Source: Escherichia coli (lineage in GTDB: Bacteria; Pseudomonadota; Gammaproteobacteria; Enterobacterales; Enterobacteriaceae). Taken from it: a stretch of 64,000 nt of DNA. This document shows positions 30,401-32,779 of the stretch, piece by piece. The position numbers were made by a program. The DNA lies in the NCBI RefSeq assembly GCF_024502345.1, contig NZ_JALDNN010000001.1, one strand, 5' to 3'. Numbering within the stretch: the stretch's first letter is position 1; every line of letters begins with the position of its first letter.

Positions 30401-32779
30401 TCAGAACTATTTAATGACTGCCTACGGGCAAAATGTAGGCCGGATAAGGCGTTCACGCCGCATCCGGCAGTCGTGTGCAGATGCCTGATGCGACGCTTGC
30501 GCGTCTTATCAGGCCTACAAATTCCCGCGCCATCCGTAGGCCGGACAAGACGTTTGCGCCGCATCTGGCAGTCGTGCGCAGATGCCTGATGCGACGCTAA
30601 CGCGTCTTATCAGGCCTACAAATTCCCGCGCCATCCGTAGGCCGGATAAGGCGTTCACGCCGCATCCGGCAGTCGTGCGCAGATGCCTGATGCGACGCTA
30701 ACGCGTCTTATCAGGCCTACAAATTCTCGCGCCATCCGTAGGCCGGATAAGGCGTTCACGCCGCATCCGGCAGTCGTGCTGGGATGGGCATACAAAATGC
30801 ACGTTCTCGGCAGTCAATATTATTTGTTGTTGCGCAGATCCAGCGCCACGTCGACGATCATATCCTCCTGGCCGCCAACCATCCGGCGTTTGCCCAGCTC
30901 AACGAGAATATCCACCGCGCTTAAGCCATAACGCGCCGCCGCCGTTTCACAGTGACGCAGGAAGCTGGAGTAAACACCAGCATATCCCAGCGCCAGCGTT
31001 TCGCGATCGACTCGTACCGGTCGATCCTGCAACGGACGCACCAGGTCGTCGGCGGCATCCATTAACGCATAGAGATCGGCCCCATGCTGCCAACCCAGTT
31101 TATCCACGGCGGCAATAAATACTTCCAGCGGCGCGTTACCTGCGCCCGCGCCCATTCCCGCGAGGCTGGCGTCGATTCGGTCGCAGCCCTCTTCCACCGC
31201 CGCGATAGAGTTCGCCACGCCAAGACTCAGGTTATGGTGAGCGTGCATGCCAGTTTGCGTTTCTGGTTTCAGCACTGCTTTCAGGGCGCGGAAACGGTCA
31301 CGGATATCGCTCATGTTCATCGCACCGCCAGAATCCACCACATAAATACAGGTCGCACCGTAGCCTTCCATCAGCTTTGCCTGCTTGGCGAGATTCTCCG
31401 GCGTGGTCATATGGCTCATCATCAGAAAACCAACGGTGTCCATTCCGAGTTCGCGGGCATACTGAATATGCTGGGCGGAAACATCAGCTTCGGTACAGTG
31501 CGTAGCCACACGAACCACCCGCGCGCCAGCCTGCCAGGCATTTTTCAGATCGTGAATAGTGCCGATTCCTGGCAGCAACAACGTCGCGATTTTGGCGTGC
31601 TTCACCACATCCGCCGCTGCTTCAATCCATTCAAGGTCGCTATGTGCGCCGAAACCATAGTTAAAGCTGGACCCCTGCAAACCGTCGCCATGGGCCACTT
31701 CAATCGAATCCACGCGGGCATCGTCCAGTGCTTTGGCAATCTGCCGAACATTTTCCAGCGAATACTGATGACGAATGGCGTGCATACCGTCACGCAACGT
31801 GACGTCCGAGATATAAAGTTTTTTACCGTTCATGCCGCTTCTCCTGCCTTGCGCGCCAGTGACTGGGCCATTTTTTCTGCTGTCGCCAGCGCACTGGAAG
31901 TCATAATGTCGAGGTTGCCCGCATAGGCAGGCAGATAATGCGCTGCGCCTTCGACTTCCAGCCAGACCGCCGTTTTCAGCCCGGAGAACTGACCCACGCC
32001 CGGCAAATTAACCGGTTTATCCTGCGGGATAACTTCAAACTGCACGCGCTGTTTCAGGCGATATCCCGGTACGTAAGCCTGCACCGCCTCAGCCATTTCA
32101 TTGATTGAGGCTTCGATATCATCTTGTGAAGCTTCGTCGCTCAATACATACACCGTGTCACGCATCATCAACGGTGGCTCTGCTGGGTTAAGCACGATAA
32201 TTGCCTTCCCTTTTGCCGCGCCGCCCACCACTTCAATGGCTCGGGAAGTGGTTTCCGTAAATTCATCGATATTGGCACGCGTGCCAGGTCCGGCAGATTT
32301 ACTGGCGATAGAAGCGATAATTTCGGCGTAATGAACACGCGCCACGCGTGAAACTGCCGCCACCATTGGAATGGTGGCCTGGCCGCCGCAGGTGACCATG
32401 TTGACGTTCAGTTGATCGACGTTCGCCTCGAGGTTAACCACCGGCACGCAGTAAGGGCCGATGGCAGCAGGCGTCAGGTCAATTAAGCGAATATCCGGTT
32501 TCGCTTCGCGTAAAGCGGCATCGTTTTTCACATGCGCGCCCGCGCTGGTCGCATCAAATACAATGTCGATATCAGCAAATTCAGGCATGTTCATCAGCCC
32601 GATCACCCCTTCATGGGTGGTGGCGACGCCCATACGTCTGGCACGCGCCAGACCGTCGGACTGAGGATCAATGCCGACCATCACCGCCATCTCCAGATGC
32701 TGACCGTGACGCAAAATTTTAATCATCAGATCGGTGCCAATGTTGCCAGAACCGATAATGGCGACTTTACGCTTACTCA

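What the first reader, a model, noticed from the sequence alone, without database searches (positions are those of the whole stretch)
30415..30780. Tandem BIME array inserted between mhpE and mhpT in copy 1 only
About four tandem units of a roughly 95 bp REP-pair element fill the mhpE-mhpT spacer here, whereas the paralogous mhpE-mhpT junction at about 62.5 kb has none. The array may act as a transcript-stabilising or attenuating structure within the mhp operon, and its copy number is a likely strain-variable site.
Basis: seen in the sequence. Interest (0 to 1): 0.25.

Follow-up and report, generated by a model that had tools for sequence, protein, structure and literature searches.

The report
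Known REP (BIME-2) array, mhpE–mhpT spacer
The repeat is real, but it is an ordinary and already described E. coli feature: a cluster of seven palindromic REP sequences between two genes of the mhp operon, whose number differs between strains and which probably damps read-through into the downstream transporter gene.

Summary
Window 30435-30779 is a tandem array with a 101 bp period (not about 95), 3.4 copies and 94% match. It consists of four Y and three Z2 REP palindromes in alternating inverted orientation, with constant 12 bp and 17 bp linkers. This is the textbook BIME-2 architecture. It sits in the 478 bp mhpE-mhpT spacer, and the mhp genes are on the minus strand.

The second mhpE-mhpT junction (62436-62504) is 69 bp and has no REP. 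That second cluster is not a duplication. It is 98.5% identical to Citrobacter portucalensis, while its mhpE is only 84% identical in DNA to copy 1. Every Citrobacter, Klebsiella and Enterobacter junction examined is compact, so the REPs are an insertion specific to the E. coli-type mhp locus.

Among complete E. coli genomes the spacer comes in steps of about 101 bp: 175, 274-276, 377, 478 and 577-579 bp, which is 1, 3, 5, 7 or 9 REPs. K-12 has 9 and the window has 7.

The K-12 array is already in the literature as a rearrangement hotspot. Its units pass Rfam's naRNA4 (REP325) threshold. By analogy with REP325, it most likely acts as a partial terminator and mRNA 3' stabiliser. That function is inferred, not tested.

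Novelty is low.

The parts
30435..30779 (.). Tandem BIME-2 array: 3.4 units of 101 bp, organised as [Y(inverted)-S-Z2-l] x3 plus a terminal Y and the first 7 nt of another S linker
   Evidence: TRF; the repeat finder; REP typing
30435..30469 (-). Y REP number 1 (nearest mhpT), 0 mismatches to the Y consensus
   Evidence: The consensus was cross-checked against the REP queries printed in PMC11208160.
30482..30518 (+). Z2 REP number 1. It contains the IS621 target ATCAGGCCTAC at 30508-30518.
30536..30570 (-). Y REP number 2, degenerate: 5 mismatches and a hairpin of only -11.4 kcal/mol, against about -21 for the other REPs
30583..30619 (+). Z2 REP number 2, with the IS621 target at 30609-30619
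30637..30671 (-). Y REP number 3
30684..30720 (+). Z2 REP number 3, with the IS621 target at 30710-30720
30738..30772 (-). Y REP number 4 (nearest mhpE). In the mhp mRNA it is the first hairpin, starting 47 nt after the mhpE stop codon.
30470..30481 (.). Head-to-head short linker (S), 12 bp, GTCGTGYGCAGA. It recurs at 30571-30582 and 30672-30683.
30519..30535 (.). Tail-to-tail linker, 17 bp, AAATTCYCGCGCCATCC. It recurs at 30620-30636 and 30721-30737.
30403..30434 (.). Non-periodic flank on the mhpT side that is also absent from copy 2 and from Citrobacter. It contains TGCCTAC, a possible REP head+tail remnant.
30773..30819 (.). 47 bp flank between the array and the mhpE stop codon, constant in all alleles and absent from copy 2. 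GGCAGTCAATA (30809-30819) is a 10/11 inverted repeat of TAATGACTGCC (30412-22).
30374..30396 (-). Hairpin GCGGCTG-N9-CAGYCGC about 35 nt upstream of the mhpT start codon. It is conserved in copy 1, copy 2, Citrobacter, Klebsiella and Enterobacter. It is part of the ancestral junction, not of the BIME.
29130..30341 (-). mhpT, copy 1 (3-hydroxyphenylpropionate transporter), downstream of the array
   Evidence: NF008586, 625 bits; annotation of homologous loci
30820..31833 (-). mhpE, copy 1 (4-hydroxy-2-oxovalerate aldolase), upstream of the array
   Evidence: TIGR03217, 600.6 bits
62436..62504 (-). Compact 69 bp mhpE-mhpT junction of the second, Citrobacter-type mhp cluster. It has no REP and serves as the comparison state.

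Best explanation
The feature is a BIME-2 type cluster of repetitive extragenic palindromes. Seven REPs (Y and Z2, alternately inverted) lie in the 478 bp non-coding spacer between mhpE and mhpT of the native E. coli mhp operon.

Shown here:
- The ancestral enterobacterial junction is compact (about 70 bp). It consists of a conserved small hairpin and the mhpT ribosome-binding region.
- The E. coli-type mhp locus carries REP DNA inserted there. The array has since expanded and contracted in whole 101 bp units, giving alleles of 1, 3, 5, 7 and 9 REPs.

Inferred from the in-register steps: the expansions and contractions arose by unequal recombination or replication slippage between units, or by RayT-type activity.

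Inferred mechanism:
- The array is transcribed when RNA polymerase coming from the mhpA promoter passes mhpE.
- The RNA folds into a row of very stable hairpins with no U-tract.
- These hairpins, together with the long untranslated stretch, make a partial, probably Rho-assisted, terminator that lowers read-through into mhpT.
- The hairpins left at the 3' end protect the upstream mhpABCDFE message from 3'-to-5' exonucleases.
- The net effect is a higher enzyme-to-transporter expression ratio than in the BIME-less arrangement, with REP number as a possible strain-specific dial.

My confidence in the identity is about 0.97. My confidence in this function at this locus is about 0.45.
For: Identity:
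- TRF gives period 101, 3.4 copies, score 627.
- There are four Y and three Z2 REPs at 0-5 mismatches to consensus, in alternating orientation, with constant 12 and 17 bp linkers.
- This matches the BIME-2 definition quoted (PMC3333891).
- There is no IHF consensus site in the spacer.
- Three units exceed the gathering score of Rfam RF02564 naRNA4, the REP325 unit: 88, 85 and 69.4 bits against 59.5.

Structure:
- Single REP hairpins fold at about -21 kcal/mol in either orientation.
- The whole spacer in mRNA sense folds at -249.8 kcal/mol, z = -10.6.
- No intrinsic terminator and no sigma-70-like promoter is found in the spacer.

Insertion polarity: compact REP-free junctions occur in copy 2, Citrobacter, Klebsiella and Enterobacter.

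Variability:
- In 58 systematically sampled genomes the spacer was 175 bp in 32, 274-276 bp in 7, 377 bp in 6 and 577-579 bp in 13.
- The 478 bp class appears as single colinear 1878 bp matches in about 35 further genomes.
- The allele architectures are [93]-(Y S Z2 l)n-Y-[47] with n = 0-4.

Function by analogy:
- REP325 is a BIME-2 array of 12 palindromic units between the co-oriented genes yjdM and yjdN. Deleting it raised the downstream gene about 8-10-fold and lowered upstream mRNA. Termination there is partly Rho-dependent.
- Genome-wide, 146 REP-containing tandem gene pairs show a median log upstream/downstream ratio of 0.96, against -0.09 in controls.

Against: - No expression data for this locus were available. 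Whether mhpT depends on read-through or has its own promoter is unknown. The promoter scan is a crude consensus scan.
- The array is oriented opposite to REP325 with respect to transcription. The best naRNA4 matches are on the + strand, antisense to mhp. In mRNA sense only one unit reaches the gathering score.
- The cited preprint stresses that REP effects are context dependent, with wide variance, and that REPs inserted after reporters did not always stabilise them.
- The commonest allele in the sample has a single REP (32 of 58), and the closely related O55:H7 and O157:H7 differ by 7 against 1 REP. Array length is therefore evidently not under tight constraint.
Confidence: 0.55

Rival explanations
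1. Neutral or selfish by-product. The REPs spread into this spacer as non-autonomous mobile DNA, mobilised by the RayT/TnpA-REP transposase. The array then grows and shrinks by slippage or unequal crossing-over. Any effect on mhp expression is incidental and not selected.
For: - Array length varies freely from 1 to 9 REPs between and within lineages. O55:H7 has 7 and O157:H7 has 1.
- One Y unit in the window is decayed, with 5 mismatches and a hairpin of -11.4 kcal/mol.
- The Citrobacter-type operon and all outgroups work with a compact junction.
- The literature describes BIME-2 copy-number variation and in vitro recombination by TnpA-REP.
- IS621 has colonised this very array in one strain.
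Against: - The units remain 93-97% identical, and most REPs match their consensus exactly.
- REP-containing tandem gene pairs show a genome-wide expression bias.
- No REP-free allele of the native locus was seen in about 100 sampled genomes. This is weak evidence, because a solo REP has no repeat partner through which it could be deleted.
- This rival explains origin, not effect. It is compatible with the array attenuating transcription.
Confidence: 0.3
2. DNA-level role. The BIME-2 array is a strong DNA gyrase binding and cleavage site (and a Pol I binding site). It manages the supercoiling generated by the adjacent inducible mhp and lac operons, or it acts as a topological boundary.
For: - BIME-2 is cited as an in vivo gyrase cleavage target, and PUs are cited as Pol I binding sites (reference list quoted).
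- The array can form cruciforms or secondary structure, and it is a hotspot involved in 20% of rearrangement junctions near lac.
Against: - Nothing in the sequence distinguishes this array from the roughly 300 other BIMEs.
- A role that needs an array is hard to reconcile with a single REP in most strains.
- Hi-C and imaging in the 2026 preprint found no REP-REP contacts or compaction role for REP325.
- This could not be tested here.
Confidence: 0.08
3. The units are genes for naRNA4-like nucleoid-associated small RNAs that, together with HU, bridge cruciforms and condense the chromosome.
For: - Rfam RF02564 naRNA4 matches lie above the gathering score for three units: 88, 85 and 69.4 bits.
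- The original naRNA4 model comes from PMC4550694.
Against: - The best matches are on the strand antisense to the only known transcription through the region.
- The Rfam model in effect recognises any Y-S-Z2 BIME-2 unit. It also hits the prpE-codB array.
Confidence: 0.04
4. The array is a complete transcriptional stop that insulates mhpT. In that case mhpT is expressed only from its own promoter, located in or just downstream of the array.
For: - The 478 nt untranslated, heavily structured spacer would uncouple transcription from translation.
- From my own recollection, unverified here, databases list mhpT as a separate transcription unit.
Against: - No sigma-70-like promoter and no intrinsic terminator is found in 30250-30900.
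- The 65 bp proximal to mhpT is homologous to the promoter-less compact junction of Citrobacter and Klebsiella, where mhpT must be co-transcribed.
- REP325 terminates only partially.
Confidence: 0.1

Closest known systems
The mhpE-mhpT REP array of E. coli K-12 (the same locus)
   Same: The flanks are identical (93 bp and 47 bp). The REP types, linkers and 101 bp unit are the same. [quoted passage not shown]
   Different: K-12 has 9 REPs and a 577 bp spacer with a 2 bp deletion in the first unit. The window has 7 REPs, a 478 bp spacer and a decayed second Y. No complete genome in the collection is identical across the region; the best is 99.0%.
REP325 / naRNA4 (Rfam RF02564), the BIME-2 array between yjdM and yjdN
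   Same: Both are tandem Y-S-Z2 units between two co-oriented genes. The CM scores are above the gathering score. REP325 has been shown experimentally to be a partial Rho-dependent terminator and a stabiliser of upstream mRNA.
   Different: REP325 has 12 palindromic units and this array has 7. Here the array is inverted relative to the direction of transcription. No experimental data exist for this locus.
BIME-2 family (Gilson/Bachellier classification)
   Same: It has Y plus Z2 REPs, a short head-to-head linker, tandem copies, an extragenic location and copy number that varies between strains.
   Different: Nothing differs. I could not verify which of the named tail-to-tail motifs (s, l or r) the 17 bp linker corresponds to.
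The prpE-codB BIME-2 array in the same window (50728-51068)
   Same: It has an alternating Z2/Y architecture, 3.6 units, naRNA4 hits above threshold, and lies between co-oriented genes.
   Different: Its period is 94 bp, both linkers are 11 bp, its REP variants are more diverged (2-5 mismatches), and its orientation relative to transcription is the opposite of the mhp array.

Membership tests
BIME-2 | Built from Y and Z2 type REPs (not Z1) | tested here: met
   There are four Y (0, 5, 0, 0 mismatches) and three Z2 (1, 2, 2 mismatches) and no Z1. The consensus sequences were cross-checked with those printed in PMC11208160.
BIME-2 | Successive REPs are in inverted orientation (head-to-head, tail-to-tail) | tested here: met
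   All Y are on the - strand and all Z2 on the + strand, strictly alternating.
BIME-2 | A short head-to-head linker (S) rather than the long L linker with an IHF site, which defines BIME-1 | tested here: met
   The head-to-head linker is 12 bp. No WATCAANNNNTTR match occurs in 30342-30819.
BIME-2 | Occurs as multiple tandem copies whose number varies between strains | tested here: met
   The window has 3.4 copies. Alleles with 1, 3, 5, 7 and 9 REPs are seen.
BIME-2 | Extragenic location, with each REP an imperfect palindrome that forms a stable hairpin | tested here: met
   It lies between the mhpE stop and the mhpT start. Hairpins fold at -21 to -22 kcal/mol with z of -4.6 to -6.6. One decayed unit folds at -11.4.
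BIME-2 | Bound and cleaved by DNA gyrase in vivo | not testable with these tools
   This is known only from the literature (reference quoted).
Rfam RF02564 naRNA4 | Covariance-model score at or above the gathering score (59.5 bits) | tested here: met
   Scores are 88, 85 and 69.4 bits on the + strand. On the - strand (mhp mRNA sense) they are 62.7, 58.6 and 50.4.
Rfam RF02564 naRNA4 | Expressed as a discrete HU-bound nucleoid-associated RNA | not testable with these tools
   No expression data were available. The best-scoring strand is antisense to the operon.
REP-type partial terminator / mRNA 3' stabiliser (REP325-like, malE-malF-like) | REPs lie in the 3' UTR between co-oriented genes, are co-transcribed, and have no U-tract | tested here: met
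   mhpE and mhpT are both on the - strand. No intrinsic terminator is found in the array. Co-transcription itself is inferred, not shown.
REP-type partial terminator / mRNA 3' stabiliser (REP325-like, malE-malF-like) | Measured drop in downstream expression and/or stabilisation of upstream mRNA | not testable with these tools
   This needs RNA work on isogenic alleles.
REP-mediated translational down-regulation (REP within about 15 nt of a stop codon; Liang, Rudd and Deutscher 2015, recalled from memory) | The REP starts within about 15 nt after the stop codon of the upstream gene | tested here: not met
   The first REP in mRNA sense (30772) starts 47 nt after the mhpE stop codon at 30822-30820.
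BIME-1 | A Y plus Z1 pair, single copy, with an L linker carrying an IHF site | tested here: not met
   There is no Z1, no long linker and no IHF consensus.
CRISPR array | Constant repeats separated by variable spacers | tested here: not met
   Both 'spacers' (12 and 17 bp) are constant, and the repeats are two alternating REP types.

The most novel reading that the evidence does not exclude
The BIME-2 array may be a selected 'valve' that uncouples transporter expression from catabolic-enzyme expression in the native mhp operon, with REP number (1 to 9) tuning mhpT expression strain by strain. Genomes such as this window's, which also carry the Citrobacter-derived operon with the ancestral BIME-less junction, would then be a natural side-by-side experiment. 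Allele-specific RNA-seq in one cell could show the quantitative effect of a REP array and its dose dependence. Decay of the native mhpT and mhpF in strain G3/10 would reflect functional replacement by the unattenuated xenolog.
Probability: 0.15. Interest if true: 0.4.

Novelty: already known. Interest (0 to 1): 0.12.

Why it matters
For genome annotation it matters little. The feature is one of roughly 300 BIMEs in E. coli, at a locus where the K-12 array has already been described. Strain-to-strain variation in BIME-2 copy number is established knowledge.

The useful by-products of the check are three:
- A clean five-step allele series (1, 3, 5, 7, 9 REPs) at one locus across thousands of genomes. 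This could serve as a natural dose series for testing the terminator/stabiliser model of REP function.
- The recognition that the 'second copy' is a Citrobacter xenolog that preserves the ancestral REP-free junction. That polarises the insertion and places both states in one cell.
- A documented double IS621 insertion into the Z2 units of this array.

Tried and rejected
- I tried to read the primary mhp papers for statements on the spacer and on mhpT transcription: Ferrandez 1997 (PMID 9098055), Xu 2013 (10.1128/AEM.02110-13) and the Diaz 2001 review (PMC99040). None is held. How mhpT is transcribed therefore remains unverified.
- The RefSeq MG1655 record, as served by the tool, lists no REP or repeat features in this region. 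I could not confirm an official REP number.
- The promoter and terminator scan of 30250-30900 found no promoter. The only terminator-like site lies inside mhpT coding sequence (30307-30287) and is irrelevant.
- The repeat finder reported 0 inverted pairs at a minimum length of 14, although the Y and Z2 units are inverted relatives. This is a limit of the tool's ungapped extension, not evidence against palindromy. Folding shows the hairpins.
It returned no other Escherichia species and not the E. coli species representative. I could not date the first REP insertion within the genus.
- The ORFs that overlap the array (30352-30564 on the - strand and 30683-30931 on the + strand) are regarded as spurious read-throughs of REP sequence.
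- A CRISPR array, BIME-1, and the mechanism of REP-near-stop ribosome stalling were considered and rejected (see the membership test).
- An in-genome duplication origin for copy 2 was rejected. Third codon position identity in mhpE is 57.7%, and copy 2 is 98.5% identical to C. portucalensis.
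Full report
WHAT IS THERE

The window is E. coli chromosome in the reverse of the K-12 orientation. The gene order is frmRA-fghA, yaiL, mhpT, mhpEFDCBA (all on the - strand), mhpR, lacIZYA, cynXST, cynR, codAB, prpEDCB, and then mmuM, mmuP and a second mhpT-mhpE-mhpF. MhpT (29130-30341, -) and MhpE (30820-31833, -) are identified by NCBIfam equivalog models at 625 and 601 bits. The non-coding spacer between them is 30342-30819, 478 bp.

THE OBSERVATION

Tandem Repeats Finder reports one array at 30435-30779 with period 101, 3.4 copies, 94% matches, no indels and score 627. The repeat finder gives three in-register 150 nt copies spaced 101 bp apart. The three full units are 93-97 of 101 identical to each other.

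Matching against the three E. coli REP consensus sequences resolves the array into four Y REPs and three Z2 REPs. I first recalled these consensus sequences from memory and then checked them against those printed in the methods of PMC11208160. The Y REPs are at 30435, 30536, 30637 and 30738, all inverted on the + strand. The Z2 REPs are at 30482, 30583 and 30684, all forward. They alternate strictly. They are separated by a constant 12 bp head-to-head linker (GTCGTGYGCAGA) and a constant 17 bp tail-to-tail linker (AAATTCYCGCGCCATCC).

The figures should be 3.4 units of 101 bp, which is seven REPs. The 94 bp period belongs to a second, unrelated BIME-2 array at 50728-51068 between prpE and codB.

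WHAT KIND OF ELEMENT IT IS

Ton-Hoang et al. (PMC3333891) define BIME-2 by four properties. It is composed of z2 and y. It occurs as multiple tandem copies. The REP and inverted REP are separated by a short linker S. [quoted passage not shown] Every property that can be tested on sequence is met. The BIME-1 properties (Z1, a long L linker, an IHF site) are not met.

Each intact REP folds into a hairpin of -21 to -22 kcal/mol in either orientation. The second Y (30536-30570) carries five substitutions and folds at only -11.4 kcal/mol. The whole spacer in mRNA sense folds at -249.8 kcal/mol, against -179 +/- 6.7 for shuffles (z = -10.6).

Rfam's naRNA4 model (RF02564) was built on the units of REP325. 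It matches three units above its gathering score of 59.5 bits, at 88, 85 and 69.4 bits on the + strand. In the mhp mRNA sense the scores are 62.7, 58.6 and 50.4. The same model hits the prpE-codB array. It is therefore in practice a detector of Y-S-Z2 BIME-2 units.

'COPY 1 ONLY' AND THE DIRECTION OF CHANGE

The second MhpE (62505-63518) is 97% identical in protein to the first. The second MhpT (61224-62435) is 88% identical. Their junction is 69 bp with no REP. The 65 bp next to mhpT aligns between the two copies, and the stop-codon region of mhpE also aligns. The native copy has 417 extra bp (30403-30819). Of these, 338 bp are REP array, and 32 and 47 bp are non-periodic flanks.

The two copies are not recent paralogs. 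mhpE is 83.9% identical in DNA, with only 57.7% identity at third codon positions. mhpT is 79.4% identical.

A scan of one genome per bacterial species with the conserved pre-mhpT motif returned Citrobacter (8 loci), Klebsiella (2), Enterobacter (1) and one E. coli-like contig. In every Citrobacter, Klebsiella and Enterobacter locus, and in a K. pneumoniae record from the plasmid collection, the mhpE stop lies about 10-25 nt before the motif and no REP is present.

Window 59467-64000 (mmuP, mhpT2, mhpE2 and part of mhpF2) is 98.5% identical over 4,534 bp to Citrobacter portucalensis A60. The full cluster in E. coli C is 98.3% identical over 9,038 bp. Copy 2 is thus a horizontally acquired Citrobacter-type cluster. 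It is present next to mmuP in 105 of 5,426 complete E. coli genomes. In E. coli C it is embedded among IS elements and has a truncated mhpA.

The compact junction is the ancestral state, and the REP DNA is an insertion in the E. coli-type mhp locus. 'Inserted in copy 1 only' is correct. 'Paralogous' should read 'xenologous'.

STRAIN VARIATION

I searched the complete E. coli genomes with a synthetic query made only of 700 bp of mhpT and 700 bp of mhpE. The span between the two pieces gives the spacer length. In the 58 joined rows of an even-step sample of the ranking, the counts were:
- 175-179 bp: 32 genomes
- 274-276 bp: 7 genomes
- 377 bp: 6 genomes
- 577-579 bp: 13 genomes, including K-12 derivatives
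- 478 bp (the window's class): 0 genomes

The 478 bp class does exist. About 35 of the 40 best matches to the real sequence are single colinear 1,878 bp alignments. They come from unrelated backgrounds (O55:H7, O169:H41, pig and pangolin isolates, MRE162). None is identical to the window, and the best is 99.0%.

Reading representative loci gives one formula for all alleles: 93 bp flank, then (Y-S-Z2-l) repeated n times, then Y, then a 47 bp flank, with n = 0, 1, 2, 3 or 4. The alleles 2 bp short of the series are the ones in which the scan missed the mhpT-proximal Y; I infer a 2 bp deletion there.

Changes are in whole units, as expected from unequal exchange or slippage between 101 bp repeats. 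They can be fast. O55:H7 strains carry 7 REPs, and O157:H7 strains carry 1.

The position of the decayed Y differs between the window (second Y) and strain AHM8C212RI (fourth Y of five), which has the closest flanks. The alleles are therefore not related by a single deletion.

WHAT IS ALREADY KNOWN ABOUT THIS LOCUS

Lin et al. [quoted passage not shown] They draw its predicted secondary structure. They report that this cluster is involved in 20% of the rearrangement junctions listed for lac amplification, and they attribute this to secondary structure. The element and its instability are therefore already in the literature.

HOW IT MOST LIKELY WORKS

Shown:
- The array lies between two co-oriented genes.
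- There is no sigma-70-like promoter and no U-tract terminator in the spacer.
- The segment next to mhpT is homologous to the promoter-less junction of the outgroups, where mhpT must be co-transcribed with mhpE.
- A transcript through the spacer would be almost entirely hairpins.

Inferred by analogy:
- REP325 is the one BIME-2 array dissected in an equivalent position (yjdM-REP325-yjdN). It behaves as a partly Rho-dependent terminator. Its deletion raised yjdN about 8-10-fold. It also stabilises the upstream message (bioRxiv 10.64898/2026.03.23.713779).
- Across 146 REP-containing tandem gene pairs, the upstream/downstream expression ratio is higher than in controls.

I therefore favour the following account. 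The mhp array lowers read-through into mhpT and protects mhpABCDFE mRNA 3' ends, and REP number is a possible dial.

Caveats:
- The array is inverted relative to REP325 with respect to transcription. Hairpin stability is the same in both senses.
- REP effects are reported to be context dependent.
- A single REP is the commonest allele, so a long array is clearly not required.
- The 'REP close to a stop codon' mechanism of translational down-regulation does not apply. The first REP begins 47 nt after the mhpE stop. The 15 nt criterion is from my memory of Liang et al. 2015.

RIVALS

A purely selfish or neutral origin explains the existence and variability of the array well, and it is compatible with an incidental effect on transcription. 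A gyrase or topology role and a naRNA4/HU nucleoid role cannot be excluded by sequence. The latter is weakened by the strand of the best matches and by the 2026 preprint's negative results for REP325.

VERDICT

This is a real, correctly recognised feature, but it is ordinary and already described. The corrections are to the unit length, and to the nature of copy 2, which is a Citrobacter xenolog rather than a paralog.

Noticed in passing
window 59467-64000 (mmuP, second mhpT, mhpE and part of mhpF); L023; L002: The second mhp cluster together with mmuP is 98.5% identical over 4.5 kb to Citrobacter portucalensis A60. In E. coli C the identity is 98.3% over 9 kb. This indicates horizontal acquisition from the Citrobacter freundii complex. 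The block next to mmuP occurs in 105 of 5,426 complete E. coli genomes.
   Followed up: partly
window 50728-51068: A second BIME-2 array lies between prpE and codB. It has 4 Z2 and 3 Y REPs, period 94, 3.6 copies, and both linkers are 11 bp. Three naRNA4 hits (65-70 bits) are on the - strand, which is sense to prpE, the opposite polarity to the mhp array.
   Followed up: partly
window 30374-30396 (- strand); also 62469-62491 in copy 2: A small hairpin, GCGGCTG-N9-CAGYCGC, lies about 35 nt upstream of the mhpT start codon. It is conserved from E. coli through Citrobacter, Klebsiella and Enterobacter despite 20% divergence around it. Its function is unknown. A processing site or a translational control element for mhpT are possibilities.
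   Followed up: partly
L010 (E. coli 23CRST029, NZ_AP045796.1), locus 3017-5800: Two IS621 copies (the bridge-RNA recombinase IS) are inserted in two successive Z2 units of this same mhpE-mhpT array. Each sits at ATCAGGCCT^AC, the published natural IS621 target. The window's array carries three intact copies of that 11-mer, and the window as a whole has eight against 0.01 expected. Another genome (H50) has an IS621 annotated within the region matching window 58500-64000.
   Followed up: partly
L003 (E. coli G3/10), locus 27057-30502: Strain G3/10 carries both mhp clusters. In its native cluster mhpT has an internal stop and mhpF is frameshifted, which may be decay after functional replacement by the Citrobacter-type cluster. 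In the window the native genes are intact ORFs.
   Followed up: no
window 30412-30422 and 30809-30819: A 10/11 inverted repeat (TAATGACTGCC / GGCAGTCAATA) brackets the whole inserted segment and pairs in the predicted RNA fold. The left copy reads TGCC-TAC, like a REP head fused to a REP tail. It may be a remnant of an eighth REP, or it may be chance (roughly 1 in 25 for an 8-mer in flanks of this size).
   Followed up: no
(O55:H7 against O157:H7 genomes): O55:H7 strains (CB9615, RM12579, DEC5A-E) have the 7-REP allele. O157:H7 strains have a single REP. This is a six-REP contraction between these two closely related serotypes.
   Followed up: no
L019 (SFGO01000113.1, 'MAG: Clostridiales bacterium'): This 7.4 kb contig, labelled as a Clostridiales MAG, carries E. 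coli mhpE-mhpT. The first 300 nt of mhpT are 100% identical to the window, and it has the single-REP allele. It is almost certainly a mis-binned E. coli contig.
   Followed up: no
window 28373-28466, 44460-44493, 47919-48005, 55762-55801, 58532-58599: Further single or paired REPs lie in the intergenic regions fghA-yaiL, lacA-cynX, cynR-codA, within the prp region, and next to mmuM. A weak hit at 43783-43818, at the lacY-lacA boundary, may be spurious.
   Followed up: no
plasmid hits H121-H126: F'-type E. coli K-12 plasmids of about 214-242 kb match the query (the copy-2 region, 61100-64000) only over its mhpE-mhpF part, at 83% identity. The absence of an mhpT match may simply reflect its lower identity to the native gene (79%).
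   Followed up: no
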